From Geosiphon pyriformis uo1 (Eukaryota > Fungi > Glomeromycota), in the NCBI GenBank assembly GCA_016748015.1, contig JAAOMT010000326.1:42430-106429 (forward strand): DNA of 64,000 bases, given 5' to 3'. Positions 11,101-60,038 of the stretch are shown piece after piece. Position 1 is the stretch's first letter. Each line of letters begins with the position of its first letter. A program made the translations under genes and the position numbers. The notes beneath the pieces were generated by a model. It had not been told where the DNA came from. It saw only the letters and a program-made list of their open reading frames with translations, and searched no databases.

Positions 11101-11466
11101 CTGTTTTTTTGCTTCTAATGCTACTGTTATATATACATATTTTTCTAGTTTTACAGAATTGCTTTAAATTGTCTGTTCTTGCTAGTTATTGCTTCATTTT
11201 CTTATGTTATAACTAATTATTTTATGTTATAACACATTATCTAATATTATTACACTTATTCTGTGTTATCTTGTATTATAACACATTATCCTATATTATA
11301 ATGTATTATTCTATATTATCTGGCATTATAACATATTATTCTATATTATAATGTATTATCCAACGTTATTGTATGTTATTCTGTGTCTATTCACATTTTG
11401 TCACGTTTTTCTTTAGATTACATTTTTTTTTCTTCTTTCTTTAATAGACTTTTTTTTCAAGTAATA
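11101..11466 (-). repeat. 5' (U3) half of a second Gypsy LTR, inverted relative to 10176-11100
   Basis: Reverse complement starts TATTACTTG (eroded TGTTAC), carries the same ATAATGTGTTATAAC repeats as 10240-10420 and a TATATA box. Confidence 0.82.
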
Positions 11467-19392: not shown

Positions 19393-20155
19393 TTAAAATT
19401 GAGCTCCTGCAAAATCATCTATTTCAGCCAAGTTTGTGTTTTTGGTAAAAAACTCGAATGTTGCTCCCAGTATTGCTTTTTGTAGAACTTCAAATTAGGT
19501 GTTTGTCATTTGTTCTATGTTGTTGACTGTAATAGTTTTCAAAGTTTCATCTAGTAATATTGTTAAATAGTGTTTAAATACTGTATATAGCCAGTATGTT
19601 GTTTTGTAATATAAGTTTAAGTTGGTTTTTCTCACAAATTTTTCTACTTGTCTGTAAGCTTCTTTGTTGATTGTTTAATGGTTGAGGTTTTTGTATAGGC
19701 TATTTAGTTCTAATTGTAATCCAATTTTAAATAGCCAATAGATGAGTAGAAGTTTTTTTTTCTATTTCTTTGCATTTTCAGATGTCCATTTTTCTGTTAC
19801 TGGCTCTGGTGTTTGTCTGTTCAGATCCTTTTTTATTTCCTTAATTCTCACCCAACACAGTTCCATTTCTGTCATCTTTTTTTTCTTTTTAGTTGTGTCA
19901 AGTTCTATTCACATCATATCCCTTTTTTTTTTCTTTTATAGAGAGAGGTTTGCTTGTAAAAGTGAAACAGCTTAGTTCTAGTTGAACTTTTGTCCATCTC
20001 TTTCTTGCTCCTATCTCTGTATTGTATTTTTTTTTATCAATTGTAATTTCTATTTGAGCAGAAGATTGTTGAATTGCATTAAACAGTTGTTTCAAAAGTT
20101 GTAGAATTTGATCTAAAAAGTTTATGTTGAAAAGATTTTATTGTTTTTTTGTCAT
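19393..20155 (-). pseudogene. E ORF3 (unknown helical protein)
   Basis: ATG at 20155; LKQLFNAIQQSSAQIEITID; ends TITVNNIEQMTNT*FEVL..DDFAGAQF* at the PPT; homologous to ORF3 of C, D and G. Confidence 0.75.
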
Positions 20156-20208: not shown

Positions 20209-23200
20209 TTATGTTTTGATAACAATGATTGGTTCCAGATTTCATGATATATCTTCTGGTCTGATTAATAGAATTTGTGTTCCTAGTTGAGGTATTAATG
20301 ATAATAACTGTTGTTTCACATGATAAATTTTTAATTGATTCCCATGAGCTATTTTTTTCAAAATCTTATCTTTTAATTGTAATTTGTAAGCTCCATTTCC
20401 TAAAGCTTCATGTATGTGAAATAAGCCATCCCACTTTGGGTCAAACTTTCCACTCCATTGTTTCTCCACTTTTGTATAATATAATAGTACTTGGTCTTTA
20501 ATCTTAAATTCCATTGGTTGTTTGAGTAGGCAATTATTATGTCTTTTTTTTTGTCATTCTTGAGCATTGCTAATATTGTCAGCTGTTGTTCTACAATTGT
20601 TTTCTAATGTTTCTATTAACTGGTATGTTCTTTAATATAAGATAGCTTCAAAATTTTTTTTGTTAATAGTTTTTGTTGGGTAGAACACTATTTTTCATTC
20701 AATAGGTAGTATTGCTTTTCTTCCATAAACTAATTCAAATAGTGTAAACTGTGTCATATTTTGCTTTAATGTTTGATATGTAAAGAATACAAAAAGTATA
20801 AATAAGTCCCATTCTTGTTTGTTTTCATAACTTATTTTTACTAATGATTCACATAATTTTCTGTTAAACTATTCTACCAGTTTATTTGTTTGTGAGTAAT
20901 ATGGTAATAATAGAAGTTGTTTTATACCAAATTGTTAACACAATTCAGTTAACATAGTATTAACAAAATGTATTTTTTAGTCTGATAACAATTCTTTTGG
21001 ACATCTATGTCTGCATATTAGATCTTGGTGTACAAATTCAGCTATTGTTTTGGCATTAGCTACTTGGATTGCTCTGACTTCTGGCCATTTTGTAAGGTAG
21101 TCTACAGCTACTGCATTATAATAATTTTCTTTAGATATAATCAAGAGAAGACCAACCAAATCAATCCCAATTCTATCAAATGAATTTCCAACTGAAATGG
21201 GTTGAAGTGGTTCTGTTACTTTGACTCCTCCTCTTTACTGGCATGAGTTACAATTGAGAACATATTCGAAGATATCCTTATACATCATAGGTCAATAGTA
21301 TAGATTTGTTGTTCTTTCTAAAATTGTGTCTTTGTTGAAGTGTTCTACAGTTGGGTCAAAATACATACTATATAATATAGCTTCTTTTTTATTATTCTTG
21401 ATCAACTGTTGTGGGGTAGTGTGGTTTTGTTATTTTTAACAATAGAGTTGGTCATTTTGAATAAAGTAATTTTACACTCGTTTTTGCATAGTATTTTGTT
21501 CCTGTTCAGATAAAATCTTCTTGAAATGTAGTGTTAATAGGTACTGATGTAATTGCTAATAAGTAAGTGTATCCATGAGTCTGAGATTAGATTTGTAGCA
21601 TTCTTAACAAACTGTTAATATTGGTGTTCTTGGATTTTTCTTTGTAATGAACTTTGAGTAAGAATTGTTGCAGATAAGTACTCTATCTTGCATATTTTTT
21701 TTCCAGCTGTGGATTATTGAGTAGCCAGATTAATTTTTTATGATTAGTATATAGGTCAAATAATTGGCTCAGGTAATGTTTCCAGATTTGTACAGCCCAA
21801 TAAATGGCAAAACTAGTCTGTTGCACTATATATCTTTTCCACTAGACTTGTGTTATGGCTAGCATATGCAATTGGATGTTCTTTTTTGTCTAGTCCAATC
21901 TGAAATAAGACAGCTCTTAGTGTATTTTTCAAGGCATTCATAGCAACAATGAAACATTTGGTGAAATCTGGGTAGATCAATACTAAAGAGGTGATTAACT
22001 ACTGTTTAAGATAGTCAAATGTTTTCTGTTGTTCCTTCTTCTATCAGTATAGTACGTGCTTAGATAGCAAATAATAAAGTGGTTTTGTAATGGTTGAAAA
22101 ATCTTTGATGAACTGTTAGTAATATCCTGCTAATTCTAGAAATCCATGTAATTCTCAAAGATTGATGGAGGCTCAAAAATCTTTGACTTTCTGGATTTTG
22201 TTTGGATCAAGTTTGACTTTGTCTTTGCCAATTATATGTTCTAAGAATTTCAGCTTGGTTTTCCCAAAGAAGTATTTGTTGGAGTTAAGTTTTAGTTCAG
22301 CATTTTAAAAATGTTCGAAGACTTATTGGAGGTGTAGCAAATATTTGTCAAACATTTCTGAGAACATGTTTGTGTTGTCTAAATAAATTATGACTGATTT
22401 TTATAGGATTCTCTTATATACGATGTCCATAAGACATTGGAAGATGGTGAAAACATTGCAAAGTTCAAAGAGCATTACATTAAATTCAAAATTTCTGTCT
22501 TGGGTGGTAAATGCTATTTTTTTTTTGTCTTTTGGATCTATTTTAACTTGTCAATATCTACTGGCTAGATCTAGTAATGAGAACCATTTCTTTTTTCCTA
22601 AGTTGTTTAGGATTTTTTGGATAAGAAAAGTGAAATAGCTATCTCTTTGGGTAATTCTATTTAATTTCTGGTAATCCTCACAGAATCATATCTTTCCATT
22701 TTTCTTTGTAACTAAGACTATTGGAGAGAACCAAGGGCTTAATAATTCTTTAATCAGTCTGTTGTCAAGCATTCATTGTACTTCCTGCTTAATTAGATTA
22801 TCACTAGATGGGAATACATGGTAAGCTTGCTGCTTAATAGATCAAGCATCTCCAGCATCAATCTGGTGTTTTACAATGTCAGTGTGTTCAAACTTATTTT
22901 TACTGGCAAAGACATCAGTGTATTGGTTTAATAAAATCTTCAATTGCATTTGCTATAAAGTGCTCAGGTTTTCCAAATTGAGTTTATTAATTTTTTTCAG
23001 TGAGAACAAGTAACTTTTCTTTGGCAGGTTCTATACTTGTAAAGTAATATCACAGAACAAGAACAATTGAGTGAAATTTGGAATAAGCTGAGGTTTTTCT
23101 GAATTCTGAATATCTAAAGATATAGAACCAATGAGAGTTCCCTCAGGAATTTTGATAACATTTTTGGTTGGATTGTGAATAGAAATTCTGAAGTGCTTAT

Positions 23201-28352: not shown

Positions 28353-28447
28353 GTATTAATCGAAATAATAATAATATATGCTATTTAATAATAAGAATTA
28401 TAAAGATAATTTCATGCTATTTAATAGCTAAAATTCTATTGGTAACA
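28353..28447 (-). repeat. 3' LTR of D, smaller (U3-end) part
   Basis: Matches 37274-37367 and ends GGTAACA next to the PPT. Confidence 0.92.
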
Positions 28448-28458
28448 TAATTTCCTTC

Positions 28459-29280
28459 TTAAGACTGAACTTCATCAAAATCCAAGCACTATTTGTTATA
28501 TTAAGATAGTGGTTCAAGATAATTAAAATGATCTGGTTTGAAAATTGTTGAAATTTCAGTTCTGTGAGCTTTCCAATGTATTGAATTTTTATTGAATAAA
28601 ATATTGAATTTTGTAGGACGTTTTCACAAGTGCTGAATAACTCATAAAGTTTAACTGCTGCTCTAAGTTTGTAGCAAGTATTTGTTGATCTAGCTGTTAT
28701 TTTGAATTCATTGTAAATTTGTTTTTATATAGTCTTAAGAGTAATGTTGGTTGTTTTAAGTTTCAGTTTTCATTTATAAAGTGTTTTTCTAATATAGAAA
28801 TATCTATATATAAAAGTATGTTTATTGTTCTGTTTATTGAGAAATAGTAGAAGTTTTTGTGAACTATGGCATTTGGTAAAATGTCAATAGGAACATATAA
28901 AAGGTTTTTTTTTAGTGCTTGCTTCAAAAGTTTTGGTAATTGAATTCCAGAATAACCTCTTGTTTTTCTTTTATAGAAGTGATAATTCTGAGAATTATTT
29001 ACTATTGGGGCTGTAGTTTTTTTCTAAATGTAATTAATTTGACTTCTATTAATCATTATAGATATGTCAAGAAGTGTTTTCAAAGTTAACATTAATTTTT
29101 GGAATATTTGTTAGATATTTCGAAAAATAATTATGATAAAAATGACTAATTAAATTTGAAAAAAAAAATAAAGAAAATTATTTTTGGGTAGAGTTTTTAT
29201 TTGTTTTTGAGTTTGAGTGTTTCTTATAATTATTTACTATTTTTTTGTTTTGTGTGTTATTAAAAAAATTATTGTAAAAA
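28459..29280 (-). pseudogene. D ORF3 (unknown helical protein), frameshifted
   Basis: YRYFYIRK..KLRAAVKLYELF..YIGKLTELKFQQF..LDFDEVQS*, aligning by eye with ORF3 of C, E and G. Confidence 0.65.
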
Positions 29281-29298: not shown

Positions 29299-32200
29299 CT
29301 AGTTTGGTTGTTGTTTTATTATAATTATTGGTTCTAAATTTTGGGAAATATCTTCCAGATTAATTAAAGGGGAATGTATGCCAATTTGTGGAATTAATGG
29401 TTTAGAATTGTTTCTGAAATAATAGTGTTTCAATTTATTTCTATGTGCAACTTTTGCCAATACTTTGTTATCAAGTCTTAACTTGTATAATCTATTGTCT
29501 AAAATTTCGTGAATATAAAATGGTCCATCTTATTTATGTTCAAATTTTCCACTCCATTGTTTTTCAGTCTTAGTTCTGTATAAGAGAACTTTATTTTCAA
29601 CTTTAAATTTGTTGGTAACTGGTAGCAGTTTGTTGTTATGTCTTTCTTTTTATAAGGCTTAAGAATATTCAATATAAGTGGCTGCTATGTGTCTCTTTCT
29701 TTTCAATGTACTAAAAAGAGTGTAAGCTCTTCTTTGAAGTGTTTCTTGAAAAATTTTTTTATTAATTGGTTGTACTAGATATATTTCTACTATGAAATTA
29801 ATTGGCAATATTGCCATCTTTCTATAAGTAAGATCAAATAGTGTGTGTTTTGTAGTATCTTTTTTTAGTGTTCTGTATGCTAGTAACACTAATGGAATAA
29901 AAATATCTCATTCCTGCTCAAAATCTGTTGAAATTTTGGCTAATAATTCACACAATGTTCTGTTAAAACGTTCTACAAGTTCATTTGTTTAGGGTGATAA
30001 GATGATAATAAGAGTTTTTTAATATTGAATTGTTCACAAATTTTTTGTATCAAGTTGTTCACAAAATGTGTTTCTTAATTAAATAAAAGTTTAATTGGGC
30101 ATCCATGTCTACAAATAATGTTTTCATAGATAAAATTTGCTACTGATTTTGCATCAGCTCTTTGAATGGCTTTAGCTTCAGACTATTTGGTGAGATAATT
30201 TATTGTCACTACAATATAACAATTTTCTTGAGTTGTAATAGGTAATAATTCGACTAAATCAATTCTAACTCTGTCAAAAAGTTGTTTAACTTTGATTGGA
30301 TTTAAAAGTTCTGTGAGACAAGTTTCTTTTCTTCTTTGACAACTATTACAAAATTCTATATATTGTCTAATGTCTTTTTGCATGTGAGACCAAAAGTAAT
30401 ATTTAAGAGTTCTTTGAATTGTTCTATCTCTTCCTAAGTGTGCTGAAAAAAGATCTGTGTGCATGTTGTATAGAATTGTTTTTTTTTTATTTTCCTGTAC
30501 TAATCTGAGTAATTGGTTTGGATTTCTACAGTTTTTGTAATAAATTTTGTTGTGGTATATAAAATATTGTTTAGATTGGTGTTGTAATTAATGTTTTTCA
30601 CTTGGAAACCAATTTTCTGGTATGGTAAGAGTCTTCAAATAGTTTTTAAGATTGTTGTAATTTCTGAGATCTATTGTTGTTTTGTTGTTTTGTTGGTAGT
30701 AATAAGTTGTGGTGGAATTGTAAGTGGTGTTAATTTTGTCTTATTCTTGAGAGACTATTAACATTGGTGTGTAGTTTTCTTGATTTGTGGTGTACAATAT
30801 ATTTGTAGTCTGCTAGGAAATCATTTCATCGAGACTATTTGGCACTTTGTTTAGTTTTCTTTTTATTGAGCCATTTGAGGCCAATATTGTCAATTATGAT
30901 GTCAAATTTTTTTCCATTCCTCAAGTATTGTTGAAAATGTTTAAGAGCCCAAATAATTGTGGCAGCTTCTAATTCAGTTGAGCCATATTTGAGTTCTGTT
31001 GATTTGAGTATTCTACTAGCATAGACAATGATTTATTCCTGGCCATTTTTATTCAATTGTGATAAGATAACACCAAATGCTATGTGTGAAGCATTAGTGG
31101 CTAGTTGAAATTGTTTGTTGAAGTTTGGATAAGCAAGAACTGGAACTGTTGTTAATTTTGTCTTGAGAGTTTCAAAAGCTTTTTGTTGTTCCTTAGTTCA
31201 TTGGTATGACACGTTTTTGTTAGTAAGATAATTGAGTGGTTTGGCAATTTCTGAGAATCCTTTTATGAATTTTCAATTGTAAGAGGCTAATTCTACAAAT
31301 TTTCATAATTCTGTGGTATTTTTGGAAGTTTGAAAGTTTTTGACAGCACTGATTGTTTCAGAGTTTGGTTTGACTCCATCTTTGCTAACAATATGTCCAA
31401 GAAAATTTAGGCTTGTCTTTCTAAAGTGATATTTCTTGATGTTTAACTTCAATTTTGCTTTCCATAATTGTTGAAAAACTTCTTGCAGGTGGATAAAATG
31501 AGCTCTAAAGCTTGGGAAGTATACATTAGTGTCATTAAGATAGACAACTACTGATTGCTACAAGAGTCTTTTATATATAATATTTATGAATCATTGGAAT
31601 GTTGCTGGTGTATTGTAGAATTCAAAAGACATAATATTGAACTCATAGTTTCCTATTTGGGTAGTAAATGCTGTTTTGGGTCTATTTTGACTTGTCAGTA
31701 TCCACTTTCCAAGTCTAAAGTTGAAAAAAACTCGGCTTTTTCTAAAGCATCTAACATGTCATCAATTTTTGGAAAAAGATAGGCATCTCCAATTGTGACA
31801 CTATTCAATTGTCAGTAGTCAACACAAAATCTGATTTTTCTATTTTTCTTTTTGACAAAAACTACTGATGAGGCCTATGGACTTTTTGATAGTTGAATCA
31901 ATCTGTTATTGAGCATTCTCTGAACTTCTTCCCTAATAAATTGGTGGCTGGCAGGTGGTATTTGATAAGCTTGTTGTTGTTTTGGTGGAGCATCTTTTAT
32001 ATGAATTTAGTGTTAAACAATATCAGTTTTTCTAAGATCATTGTTGTCTTTTGCAAATATCTCTACAAATTCAGCTATTAGCTGTTTCAATTGTCTTTGT
32101 TGTTAAGGTTATAAGGGATTCATGTTGATTCAAGAAAGTTTTTCTTCCAAAAGGTAGTAATTCTCAGTAGTAGGAATAATATTAGGGTTAAGAAATAGGA

Positions 32201-40300: not shown

Positions 40301-42148
40301 TAACATATTAAAAAAAAAGCTTATTCAAGCTTTAGTATTGATCTATCCAAATCACAACAAACCATTTATTATCACCACCAATACATCAGATCAAGCATTG
40401 GGAGCAGTACTATCTCAGAGAGAACCAGATAGAAAAAAACATCTAGTAATATATACCAGCCAAAGTTTGAGTCCAGCAGAAAAAAACTATAGAATATTAG
40501 CACTAAAACACTTAGCTATTTATTAGGTAGTCATGAAATAAAAAAATACTTAAGCCAGAAATTTAACATATACACTGATCACAAAGGATTGACATCAATC
40601 CAGAAACAAAAATTTGGAAATAACTGTCATGCCAAATAGAAAATAAAACTTTCACTATTTAAATATACAATATATTATAAAAAGAGAAAAAAAAATAAAA
40701 ATGCTGATGGTTTGTTGTGAATAAGACAAATTTAAGAACATTTCAAACCAAAAATATAACAAAAGATGAATATACAAAAATATTAACAACTCCAATATTA
40801 TATAAATACTTAACAGTTTAAAGAGAAATTATTTTAAAAAGAATGAAACAACATCAAACAACAATTTAAATATTTTATCACTTACCAAAATATACTTTAT
40901 AGGAAGAACAAAAGAAATCTAGATCAACCAACCAAAGTAATTACAGAGCCAGAGAAAGAGGCAATATTGTTCAACATGTATTCAAATCCAATAGCAAAAC
41001 ATTTTTACAAAAAAACAACCATGGAAAGAGCCAAAAAACAATATTATTGGCCATTAATGTACCCAGACATTATCTAATATATTTAAAATTGTGATGCTTG
41101 TCAGAGAAAAAAAGAAACAAAACCAAACAAACTATTAAGACCAATCAAAGTAGAACAACTATTTGATCAAATTAGAATTGATTTAGTTAGACTATAAACA
41201 ATTACCAGCAGAGGCAACAGATATATTGCAGTAGCCATGAATTATCTTACTAAATGGCCAGAAGCAAAAGCCATTCAAAGAACAGATACAGAATTTATTG
41301 CTGAATTCATTCATCAAGATCTGATTTGTTAATACAGATGTCTAAAAAAATTACTATCTGACCAAGGAACTCACTTTGTAAATAGAACATTAACAGAATT
41401 AAGTCAAAGATTTGGAATTAAAAAACTATTATTATCACTATATTATTTACAAACAAATGGCTTAGTTGAAAGATTCAATAGAATATTGTGTAAAGCAATT
41501 GCCAAAATTAGTTAAGAAAATCAAGACAAATAAGATTTGTTTATACCATCAGTATTATTTGCTTATTAGACAATGAAACAAGACACTACACAAGCAACAC
41601 CATTTGAATTAGTATATGATAGAACAGCAACATTACCAATAAAGATAGAAGTTAATACATATTCAATTAAACCAATAACAAAAGACAATTTACAAAAAAT
41701 ATTGTTAAAAAGAACATATGACTTAATAGAAACACTAGAAAACAAATAGTAAAAAGCAGCTGATAATATTTAAAAATTACAAAAAAAACAAAAAAAAAGA
41801 CATGATAACCAATTACCAGATAAACCAATTGAATTCAAGATTGGAAATAAAGTACTTTTATATTATATCAAAGTGGAAAAACAATAAAATAGAAAATTTG
41901 ACCCCAAATGGGATAGACCATTTTACATAAAAGAAATTTTAGGAAATGAAGCTTATAAATTAAGATAAAACAACAAAATCTTAGCCAAAGCAGTATATGG
42001 TGATTGACTGAAATCATATTACCATATAGTATTATCATCTACTAATAATATTCCACAACTGAAAGTACAATGAATACTAGTCCAACCAGATGAAATTTCA
42101 TGAAATCTAAAACCAATCATAATCATTGAACCAGACACATCAAATTGA
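37368..42148 (+). pseudogene. pol: C pol continuation: Cys-rich domain, dUTPase, dUTPase-like, RT, RNase H, IN
   Basis: Colinear with G 50910-55874; dUTPase ~38480-38905; YLNN (eroded YLDD) ~39933; NTSDQALGAVLSQ (RNase H); IN ~40770-42148. Confidence 0.92.
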
Positions 42149-42823
42149 ACAACCAAAAGAGTATATAAAAACATGATATACATAACAAAAACAACAAAAA
42201 AAATAGAAATACCAGACCATATTCACACTTTAACTTAACAATTGTTTCAGACCTTAAGTTAACAGCAATTAAACATAGAAATTGTCATCAATTACCAAAC
42301 AATCTGTTATCAAAACACCAAACAAAAAGAGAAAAGTACATCATACCAGTCACCACTGAAACAATCAATAAACTGGTCAGATAAAATAGTAAAGAAAATA
42401 AAAAAAACTTTTGGGAAAATAACCATCATGGTTCCAGCAGAAGAACTTTCAAAAGAAAATTGAAAACAATGAACAGAACAACTTCTAATATTATACTGCT
42501 ACTATTAGTTGGAACAAAAGTTATATCTTGATAAATCCAAAAGGATATTTAATTAAGAGATAATACAGAACATTGAAAACATTATTGGAAAAAAAACAAA
42601 TCTAACACTACACATTAGAACAATCTATTGACTACATATGATATTTCAAAATTATCCAAAAATATTGTTACACTCCAACATAGAGACAATCACTATTAAC
42701 CAATAGAGAAAAATAAACAATACACAAATTAAAGAGATAAAAAACAAAGTTGAACAAACAGTATTAAAAAAAGAAGTATTAAACCTAATTCAAAGTAAAG
42801 ATTTTAATGGAGCTTAATATTAA
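42149..42823 (+). pseudogene. C ORF3 (unknown helical protein, ~225 codons)
   Basis: QLFQ..IEIVIN..YCYY*LEQ..RTIY*LH..TITINQ*RKINNTQ..KDFNGA*Y*; frame kept throughout, stops only. Confidence 0.75.
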
Positions 42824-47323: not shown

Positions 47324-48165
47324 TGTTACTCATAGAAATATAGGGAATAGAGATTAGCATAGCCAATCAGAAGTAGACATAGTAAAATGTGGAATTCCAA
47401 GATTCTTTTCAAGAATTACAAGATTCCAGAAATTACAGAATTCTCACAAGGAATCACAGGATTACAGAATTCCAGGATTCTTCTCAAAGGAATTGCAGGA
47501 TTCCTGTTGTGGAGAATTGAGGAATTGAGGAATCTCAATTATATATATATAGCAGTAGGATTAGAAGCTGAAAAGACAGACCTCTCAGTTTAAATTTAAT
47601 CTAAGCAATTCTCCAAATCACAATCATCTAATAAATAACTATTTGTTATCTCAAATCCATTTCCACTATTAACACTTCATGTTAATAGTAATTGACACTT
47701 AACCATACTGGAACAATAGCTCTTAATCATGGCTATTGATGAAATACTAACTTGCAAATTGCCTTGGCTTATTTCTTTTCTTTCTTTATTTTCTTTTCTT
47801 TTTTTATTTTCTTGCTTTGATTTTATTGTTGTTTACTAACTCTATTAAAGATTAATGCACGGGGCATTGACGTCAGGATAAATGTGACTGGTAAAAGACC
47901 CAGAAATAAGAGTAGAACACTCGATTAAGGATAGCTTACCAGGAGGAATACCGGCCATCAAGCTGAAAAAAAAATTGATGAAACTGTGGTTTTGGAAAGC
48001 TACGAATAAAACTATCACCATTGAATCTCTGTCTATTATACAAAGAACTCAACCAAAACCTTCAAATAACAATACCTTCAGATATTACCAACAATATTAT
48101 ATTAATTGAGCACCAAGTTACAGGTTTGTTATTTGATTTGAGATCCCAAATAATCAATTATAACA
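47324..48165 (+). repeat. 5' LTR of G
   Basis: TGTTACT...TATAACA; U3 tandem repeats ~47390-47540; TATATATA ~47540-47551. Confidence 0.97.
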
Positions 48166-48167
48166 TT

Positions 48168-48185
48168 TGGTGCTCCCTGTAAGGT
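48168..48185 (+). promoter_or_regulatory. Primer binding site TGGTGCTCCCTGTAAGGT
   Basis: 2 nt after the LTR and starting TGG; equivalents in A, C, D and E. Complement fits a tRNA ending ...GGAGCACCA (elongator Met or Ile-UAU type; inference). Confidence 0.85.
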
Positions 48186-48226
48186 ATAATCTTACAGAAA
48201 ACCAGTACCAACAACTCCATCCAAAA

Positions 48227-50520
48227 GTGGCAGAATCAGAAAATATAGGAGCAAACCATTTAGGATTTGTGAAATCCTTATTTCAACACTATTGTCAGCA
48301 CTTGGGGTTAAACCACAATCATATATCTGCCAAATCAGCCTTTAATTTCTACGTTAACAAAAAAATTTTTTTTTTGTTAGGAACACCAGTAAATACTAAA
48401 GCAGCAAGGGAAACTTTCTACAGAGAATTAATTCAAAACACCAACCTATCAACAAATCATAATTTCGCATTCATTATTACTGAGATCAACAAAAAAATTG
48501 AACATCACATCCAACAAAGGTATCCAATTACATACACTAATAAAGGCAAAGGAAAACTACAAACACCAGCAGTAACTTCCAGAAAGATACAACTACCTAC
48601 TTGGAAGAAGACAAAAATTAAATCACCAACCAATCCATCTTATTACTATACACCCGGAAGCACCATCAACATTGTATTAACAGATGTGTTCACATTAAAC
48701 ATGACATCAGTATTTGGACAATTCCCATTCCAAAGTAAACAAAGAAAAACAGAATTATTAGGACCATACAGTAAATACTTCAAAAGATTTAAATCGTGAT
48801 CACCAACACCATCAGGAATTCAATCACTGCCGTCTCAACCAGACTTTGAAACTGCTACCCTGCGGGAACTATTGGAAGAAGAAGAGGAAGAAGAATCAGA
48901 AGATCAGGAATTTACTTACCAAAACCTGATCCTTGAAAACCCAGAATTTGGAACCCCAAACATTTAAACTCAGCGAGAAAATCCAGAAATTGAAACTCTG
49001 AATATTCAAGCACTGCAAAATCAAAACCCTGAAGTAATTAATCAATACTTACCACCAGTTATTATTATCAATCAACCACCAGTGGAACCAATTGGCCAGC
49101 CCATCCAAATACCGAACCAATAAAATCAACAACCACCCCCAGTACTATCTTAACAACAACTACAACTTCTACCACAGCAACAACAACAAATGGCATATGC
49201 ACCAATTGCAAAGCTCGACAAATTCACCGGCGAAGAAGACAATGCACAAGTTTGGCTAAATAATGTAAAAAAAGCCATTGCAGCCAATGGATGGAATGAC
49301 GCCAGAGCCATGCAAGCCATACCCTATTTTCTCAAGGATACAGTGGACTCATAGTATCAAAGTCTGGTTAACAAACCCCAAGATTTCAATGTCTTCAAAC
49401 TAGAATTTTTGAGATACTTTAGTAATAACAACAGCATCAACAGATTAGCCAACACTTTTACTACAATTAAACAAGAAGAAACTGAAGCAGTTACCACATA
49501 TCTGAGATGCTTCTATAGGAATCTGTGACAAATCCAAGCAATTAATGCTAATTATTTCACAGCACTATGCCCATTGCATCCAGCCACTCTTTAGGATGCA
49601 GTCACACACGCCAGAGATTTTGAATCTGCTGAATTAAAAGCCAATCATGCTCACGTCATGAACCTAATGATGAATAAATCATCTGAATTGGATTCTAAAT
49701 TGAAACAATTCAGTGATTCAATTAATCAGAAATTAGAGAGATACTTAGCTAACAATTGTAAAATTTATTAACCACCACAATGATGCAATAATTCAGGAAA
49801 CGCAAATCATTTCCAAAATCAGTCGTGTTTATCATTATCATCAGCAGCACCTAATTAGCAGTGGCAGCCAGAAACGCGTGTTTGCCACAACTGTAGTAAA
49901 CAAGGACACATAAGAGCAGACTGCAGATTTTATAGCAACAATTTATGATCGGGAAATCAATATCAAAATCCTGATCGCAGATTTCAAACTCCAAATTGTT
50001 ATCCAAATCAAGATCAAACTACTTACCTACCAATGATGCAGTCACAAATCTATTAACCATCAGTATATCAAACTCCAGTCTATCAAACACCCGCAATTTA
50101 TCAATTACAACCACAAGTAATTTATCAGCCGCAACCTCAAGTCATTTATCAATCCCAACCACAAATTCAAACACAGCCACAAAACTTGCCTCAAAATGGA
50201 ATCCAAAGGCTAAAAATGATACAACAAAACTGGCAATTGGTGATGGTAGTCCACCAACTGATCCCCAGTTCGTCAAATCAGTAAATAGGATCTCGTCAGG
50301 GGAATTTGGGTACTGGTGCCACCCAAAACCCGAATTTCCAGAACTATTTAAGTTTCCTGGTCATCCCAAAAGATGTTCAACCCAATGACCTGGAAACCAA
50401 CTTCCAATTAACACTTACCAGCAATATCCTACCAGCCACCATCACAGAAGACAAGTCACTTGCAGCCATATTTCCATTTGAAATTAAAGAACCATCAGAA
50501 GTTCCTTTGTTTAGTGGAAT
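48227..50520 (+). pseudogene. gag: G gag: N-terminal extension, capsid, CCHC knuckle, Q/P/Y-rich linker; in frame with pol
   Basis: ORF 48167-48799; MAYAPIAKLDKFTGEED from ATG 49190; CHNCSKQGHIRADC ~49882-49924; reads in frame into ORF 50306. Confidence 0.92.
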
Positions 50521-50539
50521 CACTATTGAGGAAAAACCC

Positions 50540-50880
50540 ATCATGGCGATGTACACCAATGCCAAAATTGATGGCCATTCCATCAAGCTTATTCTGAATA
50601 GTGGGTCAGCAGACAGCATTATCACACGACAACTCATAGACCAATTAGATTGTCGAATTGATTGTGCTGCCAGCACCAGAATCATAACAGCCAATGGAGC
50701 AATCAAAACTCCCATTGGCGAAATTGATGATCTACCCATTGAAATTAATGGCATTACTGTATCAATCAAGGTACTAGTAATGGAAGCAACACAGTACCAA
50801 GCTCTCGTTAACAACAACTGGTTGTCCAAAACCAACACAATGCTCAACTGGAACATACAGGAACTCCAACTTAGCCAAAA
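50540..50880 (+). pseudogene. G aspartic protease
   Basis: LILNSGSADSII (DSG eroded to NSG), ITANG, ALVNNNWL (ancestral LVGNDWL). Confidence 0.92.
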
Positions 50881-51289
50881 TGACCAACACACGCAAGTAC
50901 CGGCCACATGTGGCCATTTCAAACCAAACAATGTCACATCATTAATGCTGCTTATTGATTTTGAGGAGGAAAAACCAAAGCCTACTTGGGAGGCGTACCA
51001 AGTATTGTGGGCCAATATTGAGCACAATGAGCTACCACTAATTCTAGACTGGGAAGAAAAGAACAATAAAAAAGGAAAAGAAATAGAAACAGAAGAACAT
51101 ACCTGGGAAACCACTATTAATGCCTGGAACAACAACAATGAAAGTAAAGCAATGTCAACCAACTGGGAAGAAAAAGGGAAAGGAAAGGAGAAAGAAGAAG
51201 ACTTACCTGAAAAAGCCAACGAAGCCACAGAGAAAATAACCAGTGGCTAAGAAAGAAAATACTTATGGGAGCCAGTGAAGAAGCCACCT

Positions 51290-51945
51290 TACATTCCCTT
51301 AAAATATCAGAACTGTAAGAAGAAACTTTCTTCCATGGAAGCATGGATTGCGCTAGACGAAGACTATTGGATGCGAACTCACTACTACTGCAAACCATGC
51401 CATAGAGAACGCTATGATTACCCAAAACAACAAAGCAAGTGGGACAATGAACCATATCTTGCTTGTGGTCAACAGTTACTCAATGAAGAAATGTGGAACA
51501 ACATTCCTGGTCAAGGAGGAATGTGCAACACTTCATGCCAATACACGATCCTCATCAGTGATTAGGTGAGTTGCGGCATGCCCATAACAGCCACCTGGCA
51601 CCAAGCAATCTCTTGCTTAGAAGGTTACTCACATGATGAAGACAAAATCTGGTGAATGGCCAATGCCAAAGTAGAAAGTGCTTCACCCAGTGAAATTCTG
51701 GAAATCAAGAACAACCTTTCAGAACCAACAAACATTGTTTTGGTTCTCAACCTGGATGCCTTTCTCAACTTAGAAAACAGCCCAGAAGAATTTTATCAAC
51801 ACTATCAGAACTTAGCACCCACCAGAAAAGAGCAGGAACAAAGATTGGAAGAAATAAACACCTGACTATGTGATCATTGTTTGATCCTATGTAACTTTTA
51901 GTATTGCAATGAGTGTGACCTCATTTACAATCCACCACCATGCAT
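51290..51945 (+). pseudogene. G Cys-rich putative Zn-binding domain inside Pol
   Basis: YYCKPCH, LACG, MCNTSCQY, LCDHCLILCNF*YCNECDL; conserved in C, D and E. Confidence 0.7.
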
Positions 51946-52169
51946 GATCTACATGATCCCTGAAGAGGAAAAACCAATTAGCAGCTGTGCATCGGAATCA
52001 GAATCGATTTTCAATTCTGATTCAAACTCTGACAAGGATGATAATGAAAACACCAGTTCCAGCTCTGTTCAAAATAGAATTAACAATAACAATGATTCCA
52101 ACTTAGATTTAAACTTCAATTTAAACTACAAACAATATATCGTGATCTCCGACCTTACCAAGAAACAGA

Positions 52170-52600
52170 AACTTAAATGGTTCAACAATAACAATAAAGG
52201 TATTATATCAGAACATGTACATGATATGGATGCTGGATTTGATCTGAGATATCCCAGAAAAGAGGCCATTAAATTGGAACCACATTTGTGCATCTACATT
52301 GATCTGAAAGTAGCTTTAGAAATTTCAGCAACAACAATGATTCAACTAGCATCTAGGAGTAGTTTAGCAAAAAGAGGGATAAACATCAGAGGAGGAATAA
52401 TTAACACAGGATACGTAGGAAATATCATTGCTATGCTACAAAATGATTCAAAAAAGGCCTATATTATAAAGCCAAATAAAAAGATAGCACAAGCAATATT
52501 CCTGTCTCTAGTGAAAATAGCTCAGTTAGTGTCAGTGGGAAATAGAGAAGAATTAGGGATAACAGCTAAAAGAATACAGGGATTTGGATCAATGGGTAGA
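52170..52600 (+). pseudogene. dut: G dUTPase domain inside Pol
   Basis: All five trimeric dUTPase motifs: DAGFDL, ASRSSLA, GGIINTGYVGNI (D>N), KIAQ, RIQGFGSMG. Confidence 0.93.
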
Positions 52601-53149
52601 ATAGATATACCAGTTAATATGGCGGAAGAAGAAATTGTTAGCCAAAGAGAATTTATCTCAACCAGTCAAGCAATTTTTATTCCACCATATGACCAATACA
52701 TAGTAGAAATAGAGAGGAAGATGAAGGATCAAAACCAAATTTTTGAAGCAGAGACAAGTCTTTACGAGTCAGGAGAGATTGGACTTATCAATCTTTACAT
52801 ACCAGCCAAAAAGTATAGCCACATAAAAATTCCCATCTACAATAACACTGGAAGTGTTGTCCAGATACTAGAAGAAACTACCATTGGATATTTGACTACA
52901 GAAATAGAAGATTAACCACCAAGCACCATTCTAGACTTTCCACAGCTTTGTGGATATGTTAATATTACATCACAAACAATATATGGATGAAGCGAATGTT
53001 ATTTGCTCCAACCAGAACAATTGGAACAAATAAACATGGAAAACTTAGATCCACTCCAATGTATGCAGCTCAAGATATTGCTCAACCAGTTCAACGACAT
53101 CTTTGCCAGTGAAAATAAGTTTGGCCGAACTGATATCATTCAGCATCAA

Positions 53150-55874
53150 ATCAAGACTGGAGATACAATGCCAATTAAACAAAGAGCATACAGAATGCCA
53201 CCAGCCAGCCACAAGATTATTTGTCAAGAGATAAACCAAATGCTTGACAACGGACTAATTCAACCATTAATAAGCCTCTGGTCGTTATCAGTGGTACTTG
53301 TCCATAAGAAGAATAGCAAAATTCGATTTTGTATGAACTACAGAAAACTCAATGGCGTAATTTGTGAAGACAGCTATCCAACTCCACAAATACAGGAATT
53401 ATTTGATGCTTTCGGTGGGAACAAATAGTTCTCAACATTAGACTTAGACAGTAGTTACTGGCAAGTAGCCATGGATCCAGCCGACAAAGAGAAGACAGCA
53501 TTCACTACTAGAGAAGGGAATTTCAAATTTGAAGTGATGCCATTTGGCTTAACCAATACTTCAGCCACTTTCCAATGACTAATGGAAATTGTATATACTG
53601 GCTTATTATGGAAATCAGTAATTGTATACTTGAACGACACCAATGTATTCTCAAAAACATTTGATGATCATCTTCATCATCTTCAACAAGTGTTTGAAAG
53701 ACTAAGAAGAACAGAACTAAAGTTAAATGCAACAAAGTGCTTCTTTGACAAGACAGAACTAAAATTCTTGGAACACATAGTCAGCAAAGATGGCATCAAA
53801 ATGGATCCAGAGAAAATAGAGATAGTAAAAAACTTTCCAGTGCTGACCAATATGACAGAACTGAAATCATTCTTGGGATTCACCAGCTACTATTGACGTT
53901 TTATCAAGAACTTTTCTAAGATAGCACAGCCACTCAACCAACTGCAAACCAAGAATACAAAATATGAATGAACAGAAAGTTAACAAGAAGCTTTTGATAT
54001 TCTGAAAAGAAAGCTCATTCAAGCTCTGGTACTAATCTATCTAGATCACAGCAAACCATTCATCATTACCACTGATACATCTGGCTAAGTATTGGGAGCA
54101 GTACTATCTCAAAGAGGATCAGATGGCAAAGAACATCCAGTAGCATATGCCAGCCAAGATCTAACACCAGCCAAAAAAAACTATGGAACACCAGAACAAG
54201 AACACTTAGCAATCTATTGGGCAGTTTTGAAATAGAAAAAATACTTGAGCCAAAAGTTTGAGGTGTATACAGATCACAAAGGATTGACATCACTCCAAAA
54301 ACAAGAATTTGGAAACAGAAAACAGTCAAGATAGAAAATAGCACTTGTACCATATACTTATATTATACATTATAAAAAGAGAAAAGACAATGGAAATGCC
54401 GACAGTTTGTCACAAATAAGACAAATCTAAGAACATTTCAACCCAAAAATATAACAAAACCAAAACAATACCCACGAAAATATAACAAAAGATGAACACA
54501 CAAAAATATCAACAACTTCAACATTATATAGATACTCAACAATTCAAGGAGAAATTATCTCAACCAGAACAAAAGAGAATCAAACAACAATCCAAATATT
54601 TTATCATTCACCAAAATATACTTTATCAGAAAAATAGAAAAGATTCAGATCAACCAACCAGAGTAATTACAGAACCAGAAAAAGAGACAATACTGTTCAA
54701 CATGCACTTAGATCCAACTGCAGGACATTTTCATAAAGAAACAACCATGGAAAGAACCAGAAAGAGATACTATTGGCCATTAATATATCCAGAAATCATC
54801 CAATATGTGCAAAATTGTGATGCTTGTCAGTGAAAAAAAGGAACAAGACCCAGTGAATCATTAAGACCAATCAAAGTGGAACAACCATTTGACTGTATTG
54901 GAATTGATTTAGTCAGACCATTAACAATTACCAGCAGAAAAAACAGATACATAGCAGTAGCTATGGACTATCTTACTAAATGGCCAAAAGCAAAAGCAAT
55001 TCAAAGAGCAGATGCAGAATCCATTGCCAAATTCATTTATCAGAATTTGATTTGTTGACATGGATGTCCAAAAGAATTGTTATCAGACCAAAGAACGCAT
55101 TTTGTGAACAGAACATTAACAGAATTGAGCCAAAGATTCGGAATTAAGAGACCATTATCATTACCATACCATCTACAAACCAACAGATTAGTCAAAAAAT
55201 TCAACAGAATATTGTGTGAAGCAATAGCAAAACTCAGCCAAGAAAACCAGAACAATTGGGATTTGTTCATACCATTAGTATTATTTACTTATCAGACAAT
55301 GAGACAAGATACTACACAAGCAACACCATTTAAATTAGTGTATAGGAGAACAGCAATGTTACCAGTAGAGAGAGAAATTAATACATATCTAGTTGAACCA
55401 ATAACAGAAGAGAATTTTTAAGAAACATTGTGGAGAAGAACATATGACTTAATAGAAACATTGGAAAACAAAAAAAGAAAAGCAGCTGATAATATTCAAA
55501 AATCACAAGAAAAACAGAAAGAAAGACATGATAGTCAACTACCAGACAAACCAGTTAAATTCAAGATTAGAGACAAAGTACTCTTATATTGTACCAAAGC
55601 GGAAAAACAATGAAGTAGAAAATTTGACCCCAAATGGAACAGACCATTTCACATAGAAGAAATTCTAGGAAATAGAGCTTACAAATTGAGACTAGATAAC
55701 AAAATCTTAACCAAAGCAGCACATGGAGATTGACTGAAACCATATCACAACACCATATCACTCTCCATTAGTAATATTCCACAATTAGGAGTACAAAGAT
55801 TACTAGTCCGACTAGATAAGATTCCATGAGATCTGGAACCAATTATTATAATTGACAACAACACATGAAATTGA
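53150..55874 (+). pseudogene. pol: G reverse transcriptase, RNase H and integrase
   Basis: RFCMNYRKLN, YWQV, MPFGL, YLND (YLDD), FLGFTSYY; HPVAYAS; H..PTAGH..CDACQ, GIDLV, SDQRTHF. RT-RH-IN order defines Ty3/Gypsy. Confidence 0.96.
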
Positions 55875-56555
55875 TCCATCAAAAGAATATATAAAGACAT
55901 AGTAGATGTGACAGAAAATATCAGAAAAATGAAGATTACAGACAACATTCACTCATTAGCACAACTTTTTCAATTGATCCAACACCAAAAAATGAAAATT
56001 ACAATCAATTAACAAACCATTCGATATCAAAATACCAGAAAGATATTATAACACAGAAGACAGAAAATACCAGAAAATACCATTGACAAAATCATTGCAA
56101 AAGTAAAAGTGGCAATAAAAAAATTGACAAAAGAGTCAATATATCAAGAGTTAACCAAAGAAACTTGGAATTGGTGGATACAACAATTTCCAAGAAAATA
56201 TTGTTATTTTTACTTGGGACAATATGTGAATATTCAGAATTTATACACAAATAAAACAAAGCGGTTATTTGACACAACAATACTACAACAACTAGAACAT
56301 TTTGTGGGGAAAAACAACTTATCCACACAAGCTCGAGCTATATACCAAATACACACAGCATTCCAGGATTAACCAGAACTTTTACTCAGCAAAGCAATGG
56401 ATATGGTTACCAGTAATTAATTGGGAAAGATCACCAATGCTTAATTTGAAGAATTATAAACTCAAATAACACAAATAATTCTTAAAAACAAAATCTAGGA
56501 AATACTTCAAGAGGGAGAATTAAAAGAGTTGGATTTTGACAGAGCTCAATATTAA
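55875..56555 (+). pseudogene. G ORF3 (unknown helical protein, ~227 codons)
   Basis: Includes ORF 56109-56372 (WNWWIQQFPRKYCYFYLGQ..QARAIYQIH); ends ELDFDRAQY* in the PPT. Confidence 0.78.
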
Positions 56556-56565
56556 AAGGAGGAAA
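56554..56565 (+). promoter_or_regulatory. Polypurine tract of G
   Basis: AAAAGGAGGAAA 3 nt before the 3' LTR. Confidence 0.85.
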
Positions 56566-56568
56566 TAA

Positions 56569-57410
56569 TGTTACTTATAGAAATATAGGGAATAGAGATT
56601 AGCATAGCCAATCAGAAGTAGACATAGTAAAATGTGGAATTCCAGGATTCCTCTCAGGAATTACAGGATTTCAGGAATTACAGGATTCTTACAAGGAATT
56701 GCAAGATTCCAGAATTCTAGGATTCCTCTCAAAGGAATTGCAAGATTTCTGTTGTGAAGAATTGAGGAATTGAGGAATCTCAATTATGTATATATAGCAG
56801 TAGGATTAAAAGCTGAAAAGACAGACCTCTTAGTTTAGATTTAATCTAAGCAATTCTCCAAATCACAATCATCTAATAAATAACTATTTGTTATCTCAAA
56901 TCCATTTCTACTATCAACATAAAATGTTGATAGTAATTGACACTTAACCACACTGAAACAATAGCTCTTGATCATGGCTATTGATGGAATACTAACTTGC
57001 AAATTGCCTTGGCTTATTTCTTTTCTTTCTTTATTTTCTTTTCTTTTTTTATTTTCTTGCTTTGATTTTATTGTTGTTTACTAACTCTATTAAGAATTAA
57101 TGTGCGGGGCACTAATGTCAGAATAAACGTGACTGGTAAAAGACCCAGGAATAAGAGTAGAACACTCGATTGAAGATAGCTTACCAGGAGGAATACTGGC
57201 CATCAAGCTGAGAAAGAAATTGACAAAACTGCAGTTTTGAGAAGCTACAGATAAAACTATCACCATTGAATTTCTGTTTATTATACAAAGAACTCAACCA
57301 AAACCTTCAGATAACAATACCTTCAGATATTACCAACAACATTATATCAATTGAGCATCAAATTACGGGTTTGTTATTTGATTTGAGACTCCAAATAATC
57401 AACTATAACA
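56569..57410 (+). repeat. 3' LTR of G
   Basis: Same length as, and colinear with, 47324-48165. Confidence 0.97.
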
Positions 57411-60038
57411 CTGTTTATTTGAGATTGTCTTTCTCAAAACAAGATTGACAAAAAACTGAACATTTGAATACACTTTAGCCAAGCTAAGTTTCGACAAACT
57501 CTTAGAAGACAAAAAAATACCCAAATAATGCTAAGGTTCTCCTTTTTTGGCAACAGAAATAGGCAAGCCACTAACAGTCAGATAAGAGTTTGAAACCCAG
57601 CAGTTAATGAAGATGGCCACAGTCTTGTTATTATTTATAGAAATGTTATTAAACCTAAAGAATTCTCTAGCAATATTGAGGATGTATTGTGTAGTAGTTT
57701 GGCTACTACCAATCCAAATTGTATCATCGATAAAAGCATCAGCAATAAAAAATAATGTCAACCCAGTCTGAGATTCTGCCTGGTTAGACTTGAAGACAAA
57801 ATGAGAATTCAACCTGTAACTACACACACTCTTCTGCCTTTTAACCTCACATAGAAGCAAATCATAGAATATACACCAAAGAAAAAGTAAGAAAACTTCC
57901 TCTTGGTCTAACCCATTATGAACATGATACCCATCAGTTAAGCCAAAGTCTGTCATTACTTTGTTAACATGACCATTGTAAATACTACCAAAAAATCTAA
58001 TAAACTTGTCACACATCTTGATTTTAACCAAATTCCTCCTAAGACATTTCTAACCAACAGAGTCATAGGTCTTATACATGTTCTGCAAAACCAGTCACAG
58101 TTCTCAGTTTTTCTCCAAGGCATCTTTGACCACTGAGCCAATGGCAAAAATAGGCGATTGCATTGTTGTACCTCTCAAAACAAAGAAATTGTCTTCATGT
58201 AAAATATTATAAGTGCTGCAAGCTAAAGAAATCCTATCTGAAAGATCTTTGGAAAGGATTTTGTGAGCTGTTTCAATCAAAGCAATAAGACAGATATTCA
58301 TAAAAACACTTTCTCATTCATATGACTTAGAAATTATTAAAACCCAAGTTTCTCTTTAAGACCCAAATACTAATTCACAAATCAAACACAGATTCAAGAA
58401 CACCAAAAACATATCCAAAACTGAATTGTTACAGTGTTTCCACAATTCATTAGAGATGCCAGAAAGACCAGCTGCTTTCCCATCAAACAGATTTAAGACC
58501 ACAACAAACATATTATCAAAACCAATCAGACACATTACATTAGAAAATGCATTATTGAAAACATATTCCAAAGGCTGATATTGGTGAGTCCAATCATCAG
58601 AAATATCAAACACCATTTCACATTTCCTAGTCCAATTCTTCATAATCTCATCTATCTTAAATTTAACCAAATCAGGCTTTAAAACCAACTCATCACTTAC
58701 AACCAAATGATCTAACACCATCTTGCAAAAAAAATGCTCCAATACACTCCTGATGGTACAACCCTTATCTAATTCAAAACTTTCTATTCTACTGGTAATG
58801 GCCCACTTGATATAAGATTCTTTAGCATGCTTAAATTCTAGCAACTTGAAAAAACAGTAAGACTTCTTTGCTTTTGCCAGTCCAGAATGAATATCATCAA
58901 AAATAGAACCTAAAAGAAAAAGAGACTTTACTTCTGCTGTGCCATTAGAATCAAGCCTATCCCATATACTCAGCAACAAAGCAAAATCCTTACTTAAAAC
59001 CAAACAAGAAGCTTTCACCAGCCTAAATACCAACAATTCTAGCTTATAGAACTTAGAAGACAATTTGATAAAAACACTGTCATAATTTTTGAAACATTTC
59101 TTTTTAAATGTTCCATTGGCTGACAAAATCATAATTCTATAAACAATGTCTTACATTACATCCAGATCTGAAGACCTCTCAGCTACCACAAACACATCTG
59201 AAAACATAATAGCATTAGCAGCTGTAACATCTCTAAATTTGCATCACTTTCTTTCATCAGCACTTCTAATGTTAAACTTCTAACAATTCTTGTTCACCTG
59301 CTTACACTACAAGGACAGCTGAACATCCAACAAACCATCCAGACTTACAGAAACAGAAACAGCTACATAATCAGTATCAAAATAATCCACAATACTAGTC
59401 ATATTGTGACCTATTATCACATTGATTAAATTCAAAAAAACAAACACATAATCAATTGTCTTAGCAACATCACAAAAATTGCATTATATTGGTAACTTAG
59501 CAAATAAGCTTCTAGCTAAAGAGTTTATTAGACCCAAATCAAAGCATTTCCTGAAACTGGCACATTTACAAAAATCATTCTTATTAAAGTCACCATCAAG
59601 AATAACAAAAGAAGATTCATTCACAGTTTTTGCAATAAGAGAATTGATGTCAACAGTCTGAAAGAACTGAACTACCAAAGAAGCACCAGCATATAGCCCC
59701 AAGATCAATACAGAAAACTTATTCTTGAAAAGCAACTTGACAGAAAAAATTTAACTAGGCACTTCACAAACTTTGCACACATGACAAGCCAAAAAAATGT
59801 CCATAATAATAGCAATGCCTGAATCCAAGTAACCAGAATTCACACCAAAAGTAAAGACATGAACACTATCAAACTTGTTTATAATCTATGAATAGATTTT
59901 ATTTTTCAATTTAGTTTCAATAACAATAAAAATCAAATTGTTCATATTTTTATGCCAACAAATTATATTACCCTACTTTGCAGGATTGTTCATTCCCTTA
60001 ATATTGCAAGTGACAACTTTCCAAACCTTACTATTCAT
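57411..60038 (-). pseudogene. LINE copy 3 ORF2, N-terminal part (APE and RT)
   Basis: MNSKVWKVVTCN.., ILDGDFN, GKAAGLSGISNELWKH, IALIETAHKILS, GLDQEEV.., AFIDDTIW. Confidence 0.93.

What the first reader, a model, noticed from the sequence alone, without database searches (positions are those of the whole stretch)
55875..56555. Conserved third ORF between integrase and PPT that is not Env
Seen: integrase ends just after LEPIII in all four elements, then a homologous ORF follows (C 42149-42823, E 19393-20155, D 28459-29280). Motifs shared among them: QLF..I.I.I(N/D), Y(C/R)Y(F/Y)Y(L/I)G, R..(I/L)Y.(L/I), (I/L)GK(I/L)TN.QF and a terminal DF(A/D/N)GAQ(Y/F)* abutting the PPT. No signal peptide or transmembrane run is visible. 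Inference: a soluble helical accessory protein; its last half recalls, from memory only, an uncharacterised domain common in Glomeromycotina proteins (..RARKIYKLF..SANAISKLTNAQI). It lies in the pol frame in C and G, so readthrough is possible.
Basis: partly seen in the sequence, partly recalled or inferred. Interest (0 to 1): 0.78.

Follow-up and report, generated by a model that had tools for sequence, protein, structure and literature searches.

The report
Non-Env third gene in fungal retrotransposons
A family of fungal jumping genes carries a conserved extra gene after its integrase that is not a viral envelope gene but encodes a small soluble protein, predicted to be mostly helical and likely to bind DNA or RNA and so regulate the element itself.

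Summary
The ORF is real. Four decayed Ty3/gypsy elements (C, D, E, G) each carry a homologous 220-250-codon ORF between integrase and the 3' LTR. The host is very likely the fungus Geosiphon pyriformis. A profile built only from metagenome homologues finds exactly these four places, and the ORF shows codon-position constraint. A near-intact metagenome relative has it as a stop-free gene with its own ATG, 316 nt after the integrase stop. Spacer and frame vary, so read-through is unlikely. It is not Env: no transmembrane or signal segment, furin site or cysteine set. Two corrections: the terminal 'DFxGAQY' is a DNA motif beside the PPT read in two frames, and D's coordinates shift. The core folds confidently as seven helices. 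The best structural lead is the ParB/KorB DNA-binding domain, but at Z 5.2 it is not significant. Best reading: a separately translated nucleic-acid-binding regulator (about 40%). Integrase is itself a separate ORF (5 of 5). This scan earlier noted a separate-integrase, three-gene lineage in other genomes; I found no paper on it.

The parts
47324..48165 (+). Element G 5' LTR (842 nt, TG...CA, 4-bp target duplication)
   Evidence: 92% identical to the 3' LTR
48168..48185 (+). G primer-binding-site-like stretch (starts TGG; tRNA not identified)
48251..54430 (+). G ORF1 frame (start approximate): gag, zinc knuckle, protease (50558-50827), unassigned Cys/acidic region, dUTPase (52223-52552), RT, RNase H, ending in the conserved TAA at 54428-54430; decayed
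54492..55874 (+). G ORF2: integrase with its own ATG (H2C2, rve, SH3), ending at TGA 55872-55874
55899..56555 (+). G ORF3 (the finding). Start codon ATA here, ATG in most sister copies; second ATG at 55929; 7 internal decay stops
56542..56553 (+). Conserved DNA motif upstream of the PPT (source of the 'GAQY' reading)
   Evidence: present in G, C, E, D and L001 in two reading frames
56554..56565 (+). G polypurine tract
56569..57410 (+). G 3' LTR
40766..42148 (+). C integrase ORF (ATG 30 nt after the RNase H stop at 40733)
42173..42823 (+). C ORF3 (ATG 24 nt after the integrase TGA); 3' LTR starts at 42837
20209..21576 (-). E integrase ORF (ATG 10 nt after the RNase H stop at 21589)
19393..20155 (-). 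E ORF3 (ATG 53 nt after the integrase stop, other frame; frameshifted by decay); 3' LTR starts at 19378
29299..30674 (-). D integrase (one frameshift; start codon decayed or uncertain)
28428..29130 (-). D ORF3 (start approximate; about 170-nt AT-rich spacer upstream; one frameshift; runs through the PPT into the LTR that starts at 28447)

Best explanation
ORF3 is a lineage-wide accessory gene of a fungal Ty3/gypsy clade, likely translated separately from its own ATG into a soluble 210-290-residue protein whose seven-helix core is predicted to hold a helix-turn-helix and likely binds the element's own nucleic acid to boost or protect its expression. Shown: conserved position, own start codon, variable spacer and frame, codon constraint, tree compatible with integrase, no membrane features. 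Predicted: an N-terminal helix/beta-hairpin/helix module and a confident helical core. Inferred: a ParB/KorB-like fold (about 35%), nucleic-acid binding (about 55%), and a role as LTR transactivator or anti-silencing factor in a host whose repeats show heavy C-to-T decay (about 30%). Like the separate integrase ORF, it would need a subgenomic or spliced RNA, or re-initiation after the upstream stop.
For: Separate gene: L001 has a stop-free 230-codon ORF with its own ATG 316 nt after the integrase TAA, across a 23%-GC spacer with one TATA-like hexamer. Gaps are 24/24/53/about 170/316 nt, out of frame in 3 of 5. An ATG sits at the same place in C and in most G-family copies (A>G at 55901 in 73% of contig depth, 81 contigs). 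Of 225 stored proteins, 3 carry the integrase-end motif and none continues in frame into ORF3. Constraint: in the DNA-aligned G-C ORF3, differences at codon positions 1/2/3 are 91/208, 55/209 and 97/207 (Fisher P 4e-6); transversions at position 2 vs 3 are 30 vs 52 (P 0.007); integrase control P 0.003; LTR control best P 0.14. All 7 internal stops in G sit opposite Q (or K/R/Q) in sister models. Integrase and ORF3 trees both split (D, L001) from (E, G, C). Fold: core pLDDT 91, pTM 0.86. Among 48,161 chains the tied top match is the Spo0J DNA-binding region (Z 5.2, rmsd 4.3, 91 aligned); KorB (Z 4.2, rmsd 4.6, 93) and ParB (Z 3.9, rmsd 5.3, 93) also span the whole core. I named this fold class before collecting the fold searches. 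A conserved Gly-Lys-x-Asn turn precedes a helix with conserved Arg/Lys. Precedent for inferred or shown regulatory accessory genes: Retand TRP28 (PMC11963269), CERV (PMC10309623).
Against: The structural match is below the tool's own significance guide (Z under 8, or under 13 for helical bundles, may be only a common arrangement) and is tied with unrelated helical domains such as PNPase (Z 5.2) and Orc6 (5.0). Foldseek found nothing at E<=1e-3 in PDB or BFVD. DUF1016_N scores only E 0.016-0.037 in 2 of 24 proteins and 1 of 32, among many equally weak unrelated families. Profile-profile comparison with DUF1016_N gave probability 4%, and 2 of 40 block shuffles reached its score. No ParB or KorB family hit appeared in Pfam or NCBIfam. 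The intact metagenome proteins are acidic overall (pI 5.1-5.9). A CGA allele at the G junction stop at under about a third of copies is not excluded (one search was uninformative). Stop counts alone do not single out the G frame (7 vs 16 and 7). Genomic context was seen for only 1 of 7 non-Geosiphon homologues.
Confidence: 0.4

Rival explanations
1. ORF3 is an integration-targeting cofactor that binds integrase and chromatin or DNA, doing in trans what a chromodomain does in cis.
For: It always follows integrase and co-varies with it. The integrase has SH3 but no chromodomain hit. Elements are nested in one another in this window.
Against: There is no direct evidence of contact, and ORF3 evolves much faster than integrase (37% vs 69% aa identity G-C). 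Nesting is expected anyway in a genome reported as 41% LTR (PMC11952901, passages).
Confidence: 0.15
2. ORF3 is an RNA-level regulator (Rev- or CERV-like export, splicing or re-initiation factor) needed to express the separately encoded integrase.
For: The lineage has three ORFs, so it needs non-standard expression. CERV is a precedent (PMC10309623, abstract).
Against: No RNA-binding family hit. The weak fold lead points to DNA binders. No RNA family was found in L001.
Confidence: 0.17
3. ORF3 is a structural or movement protein that helps particles or DNA move between nuclei or hyphae in a coenocytic fungus, without membrane fusion.
For: It occupies the env position. The second ESM Atlas hit was a closterovirus coat protein (0.93), and a filamentous-virus coat protein appears at Z 4.5.
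Against: Both hits are weak: 156 of 256 shared features, and Z within noise. There is no membrane segment.
Confidence: 0.1
4. ORF3 is a read-through or fused C-terminal extension of integrase, at least in G and C.
For: In frame in G and C with a single TGA that could be a decayed CGA (CpG observed/expected 0.25 and 0.02). The upstream TGA at 55866 is a sense codon in 70% of depth.
Against: Out of frame or 53-316 nt away in E, D and L001. There is an ATG 24 nt after the stop in both G-family and C. No T>C row at 55872 among the 40 listed differences (25 were not shown). No read-through model among 225 proteins, although long fusions were outside the length filter.
Confidence: 0.07
5. ORF3 is a degenerate Env or a neutral passenger sequence.
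For: It lies at the env position.
Against: No TM or signal segment, no furin site, 1-3 Cys. It shows codon constraint and is kept as an intact ORF in 3 metagenome lineages at 18-37% identity.
Confidence: 0.04

Closest known systems
dUTPase-bearing fungal Ty3/gypsy elements (PosPlaTy3-5 of Postia placenta; Phanerochaete elements; Tmt1 of Tuber), per PMC2864245 (passages read)
   Same: LTR gypsy domain order PR-dUTPase-RT-RH-IN, with dUTPase between PR and RT.
   Different: Here integrase is a separate ORF and a conserved third ORF follows it; no chromodomain hit. The passages I read do not describe this arrangement.
Non-envelope ORF3s of bdelloid LTR retrotransposons (GDSL esterase, DEDDy exonuclease, TM and coiled-coil types), PMC5408684 (abstract and passages read)
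   Same: Sense-strand ORF3 of similar size at the env position in dUTPase-bearing lineages, not Env.
   Different: Those ORF3s are enzymes or TM proteins; this one has no Pfam family and no TM segment, and is predicted helical.
TRP28 extra ORF of plant Retand elements, PMC11963269 (abstract and Discussion read)
   Same: Lineage-wide extra gene between pol and the 3' LTR, inferred to bind DNA and regulate the element.
   Different: TRP28 is antisense in a 3-6.5 kb region; this ORF is sense, abuts or crosses the PPT, and shows no TRP28 hit in Pfam scans.
CERV of C. elegans Cer1, PMC10309623 (abstract read)
   Same: Retrotransposon-encoded soluble regulator of its own expression.
   Different: Animal element, spliced mRNA, shown RNA-export role; no sequence link was tested or seen.
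ParB/Spo0J/KorB DNA-binding domain (PDB 1vz0, 1r71, 6s6h) and DUF1016_N (PF17761)
   Same: Weak whole-core structural match (Z 3.9-5.2) and marginal sequence hints.
   Different: Not significant; no ParB catalytic domain; 11-14% identity; eukaryotic retroelement context.
Foamy-virus accessory transactivator Tas/Bel1 (recalled, not from a call)
   Same: 3'-encoded accessory regulator in a retroelement with unusual pol expression.
   Different: Retrovirus with Env; no homology tested.

Membership tests
Ty3/gypsy LTR retrotransposon (element) | Direct LTRs with TG...CA ends, target-site duplication, PBS and PPT | tested here: met
   (G: 842-nt LTRs, 4-bp duplication)
Ty3/gypsy LTR retrotransposon (element) | Domain order gag-PR-RT-RH-IN | tested here: met
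Ty3/gypsy LTR retrotransposon (element) | Integrase within the RT/RH polyprotein (typical, not strictly defining) | tested here: not met
   TAA after RNase H in 5 of 5; own ATG in 4 of 5, uncertain in D
Ty3/gypsy LTR retrotransposon (element) | RT phylogeny placing it in a named lineage | not tested
Env fusion glycoprotein | Signal peptide and C-terminal TM anchor | tested here: not met
   hydropathy only; 12 of 12 below TM level
Env fusion glycoprotein | Furin site, conserved cysteines, 400+ residues | tested here: not met
   no R-x-K/R-R; 1-3 Cys; intact forms 230-297 aa
Env fusion glycoprotein | Fusion-protein fold | tested here: inconclusive
   none listed
Integrase C-terminal domain (chromodomain or similar) | Contiguous in-frame fusion to integrase | tested here: not met
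Integrase C-terminal domain (chromodomain or similar) | Profile match to a known IN C-terminal family | tested here: not met
   SH3 lies upstream inside IN; ORF3 has no such hit
ParB/KorB DNA-binding domain | Helix-turn-helix fold with flanking helices | tested here: inconclusive
   Z 5.2/4.2/3.9, rmsd 4.3-5.3, whole core; below significance guide
ParB/KorB DNA-binding domain | Sequence-profile match | tested here: not met
ParB/KorB DNA-binding domain | Dimerisation | not tested
   complex-prediction queue was full
ParB/KorB DNA-binding domain | Sequence-specific DNA binding | not testable with these tools
   needs biochemistry
DUF1016_N (YhcG N-terminal) | Profile match above the curated cut-off | tested here: not met
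   best 15.8 bits vs cut-off 32.8; probability 4%; 2 of 40 shuffles reach it
   no such hit at E<=1e-3 with a Geosiphon-heavy profile; unnamed Mucoromycota cluster at 0.94

The most novel reading that the evidence does not exclude
A Glomeromycotina-associated gypsy clade has split its genome into three separately made products (Gag-PR-dUTPase-RT-RH, integrase, ORF3). ORF3 is a captured bacterial-type ParB/KorB-like DNA-binding protein that recognises the element's own LTR, acting as a transactivator, an anti-silencing factor or a factor that moves element DNA among the many nuclei of a shared cytoplasm. This would be a new class of retrotransposon accessory gene and could help explain the LTR expansion in Archaeosporales.
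Probability: 0.22. Interest if true: 0.8.

Novelty: new variant of a known kind. Interest (0 to 1): 0.52.

Why it matters
Third ORFs at the env position are often assumed to be Env (PMC5408684). This one is not, is kept across at least seven Geosiphon subfamilies and three metagenome lineages, and sits in a clade whose integrase is also uncoupled from RT. LTR elements cover 41% of the G. pyriformis genome (PMC11952901), so an element-encoded regulator could bear on how these elements expanded despite heavy C-to-T decay. The stop-free L001 protein makes binding and reporter tests directly possible. The work also flags dozens of G. pyriformis 'hypothetical protein' models as retrotransposon fragments.

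Tried and rejected
No whole genome is held, so copy-level allele counts could not be made. No RNA holder was listed; this says nothing about expression. The second read-laying on 60 nt returned no difference table. Scans with L001 integrase (viral and prokaryote contigs) and P0132 (viral contigs) found no relative. tblastn of the core against phage genomes gave 1 hit at E 9. ESM Atlas: none for P0002. No significant family in Pfam, PHROGs, NCBIfam or PDB sequences. Foldseek: nothing at E<=1e-3. VIA on Foldseek's picks reached at most Z 3.9; the full-length wide search reached at most Z 4.6, with Spo0J 3.8 and KorB 3.4. No Env or capsid fold stood out; this absence is not proof. Profile vs single YhcG: E 0.48. 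A KorB profile comparison was dropped because the record was not in the collection. The homodimer prediction never ran because the queue was full. The junction test is valid only for the stop at 55872 (1 of 80 models aligned a residue there); the 55866 row cannot be filled by design. Rejected: DFxGAQY as a protein motif; Env; read-through as the lineage-wide mode. Literature searches listed no paper on this ORF or arrangement. Repbase and subscription papers, including the main Geosiphon genome paper, were not seen, and no supplements were opened.

Full report
Setting. The window is AT-rich DNA packed with nested LTR elements. All 80 of 80 homologues of G ORF3 are gene models named Geosiphon pyriformis, so the host is very likely this Archaeosporales fungus; no genome was held. 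Differences between paired LTRs are almost all transitions (64 of 68 in G, 99 of 100 in C) and CpG observed/expected is 0.13, so most stops are post-insertion decay. Element G spans 47324-57410 with 842-nt LTRs and a 4-bp duplication. One frame carries gag, protease, dUTPase, RT and RNase H; integrase with H2C2, rve and SH3 domains follows.

Is the ORF real? G ORF3 matches C, E and D within the window. A profile made only from seven metagenome homologues finds exactly these four places (17-47 bits; next -5; best of 30 shuffles 4.0). In a DNA-level G-C alignment, second codon positions differ far less than first and third (55/209 vs 188/415, P 4e-6), and transversions favour third positions (P 0.007). 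Integrase behaves the same way and the LTR control does not. The first five indels are multiples of three; the last four, near the 3' end, are not. All seven internal stops in G face Gln, or Lys/Arg/Gln, in sister models. ORF3 evolves faster than integrase (37% vs 69% G-C identity), but the two trees are compatible.

Range. A search of 1.84 billion representatives gave 111 hits. Of 10 looked up, 7 were G. pyriformis and 3 came from metagenomes. Of the 100 new ids, 97 matched Geosiphon family references best and 3 were those metagenome proteins. Further searches added four more metagenome proteins, giving seven in three lineages at 18-37% identity between lineages. Context was obtained for one: L001 holds RT-RH, integrase (one internal stop), a 316-nt AT-rich spacer, a stop-free 230-codon ORF3 and the start of an LTR.

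Separate gene, not read-through. The integrase stop to ORF3 start gap is 24 (G), 24 (C), 53 (E), about 170 (D) and 316 nt (L001), out of frame in three. In contigs of a DNA run holding this stretch (possibly the source sample), codon 55899 is ATG in 73% of depth and the stop at 55866 is a sense codon in 70%. No change is listed at 55872, but 25 rows were hidden and the listed rows start at a share of about 0.35, so a minority CGA is not excluded. No stored model reads through the junction, although long fusions lay outside the length filter. The same uncoupling occurs upstream: RNase H ends in TAA at the same place in 5 of 5 elements, and integrase starts 10-61 nt later, in frame in two and shifted in three.

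Corrections. The terminal 'DFxGAQY' comes from a DNA motif before the PPT that is conserved in all five elements but read in two frames; D and L001 read through it into the LTR. It is therefore likely a cis element. D's ORF3 is about 29130-28428.

What the protein is. It has no TM or signal segment, no furin site and 1-3 Cys in 12 of 12 proteins, and no significant family. AlphaFold gives an N-terminal helix/hairpin/helix and a helical body (pLDDT 79); the core alone reaches pLDDT 91 with seven helices. Foldseek is blank. In the wide structural search Spo0J ties for first place (Z 5.2), and KorB and ParB also align over the whole core, but unrelated helical domains score alike and the values are under the tool's significance guide. 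DUF1016_N hints are at noise level. A ParB-like helix-turn-helix is therefore a lead (about 35%), not a membership.

Mechanism. Shown: a conserved, constrained, soluble third gene, with its own start. Inferred: separate translation from a subgenomic or spliced RNA or by re-initiation; nucleic-acid binding through the conserved turn and basic helix; and action on the element's own LTR or RNA to sustain expression in a host that mutates repeats heavily. Rivals are an RNA-level regulator, an integration cofactor, a movement or structural protein, and fusion to integrase. Dimerisation was not tested because the queue was full.

Prior knowledge. Non-Env ORF3s are known in bdelloid elements (PMC5408684, abstract and passages), dUTPase between PR and RT in fungal gypsy elements (PMC2864245, passages), putative DNA-binding extra ORFs in plant Retand (PMC11963269, abstract and Discussion), a regulator in Cer1 (PMC10309623, abstract), and the 41% LTR content of G. 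pyriformis (PMC11952901, passages). Nine searches listed nothing on this ORF; Repbase and closed papers were not seen. Two earlier notes of this scan describe a separate-integrase lineage in other genomes, one with a third gene. They are not independent support, and I could not check whether their third gene is the same. The 8-nt start/stop overlaps they report are absent at the integrase starts here (gaps of 10-61 nt).

Verdict. A real, apparently unpublished accessory gene family in a three-ORF fungal gypsy clade; a new variant of a known kind, with function inferred at moderate to low confidence. Interest 0.52.

Noticed in passing
window 54428-54494, 40733-40768, 21576-21589, 30674-30732; L001 772-801: Integrase is a separate ORF: conserved TAA after RNase H in 5 of 5 elements, then an ATG 10-61 nt later in variable frame.
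   Followed up: partly
window 56542-56553 and equivalents in C, E, D, L001: DNA motif conserved just upstream of the PPT regardless of reading frame; likely cis-acting.
   Followed up: partly
window 50830-52220: About 460 codons between protease and dUTPase in G with Cys/His clusters and an acidic Ser/Asn tract; no Pfam family at E<=0.01.
   Followed up: no
window 48251-49250: Long N-terminal extension before the Gag core in G with no Pfam hit.
   Followed up: no
window 13634-43696: Nested insertions: E appears to sit inside D's 3' LTR, and D inside C.
   Followed up: partly
LTR pairs of G, C, E, D: 93-99% of LTR differences are transitions, many outside CpG context; CpG observed/expected 0.02-0.25. 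Suggests methylation-driven or RIP-like decay.
   Followed up: partly
L001 2127-2143: The integrase stop overlaps an 8-nt ATG...TAA word like the one named in an earlier scan note, but it opens only a 3-codon frame and ORF3 starts 316 nt later.
   Followed up: no
window 6420-13641 and 57422-61551: Another repeat family on the minus strand with an RNase H-like match; probably non-LTR elements.
   Followed up: no
window 10210-10523 and 11101-11414: Long inverted repeat of 10-nt-period AT-rich units, resembling transposon terminal repeats.
   Followed up: no
P0002-P0081 and similar: Many G. pyriformis 'hypothetical protein' models are spliced fragments of these retrotransposons.
   Followed up: partly
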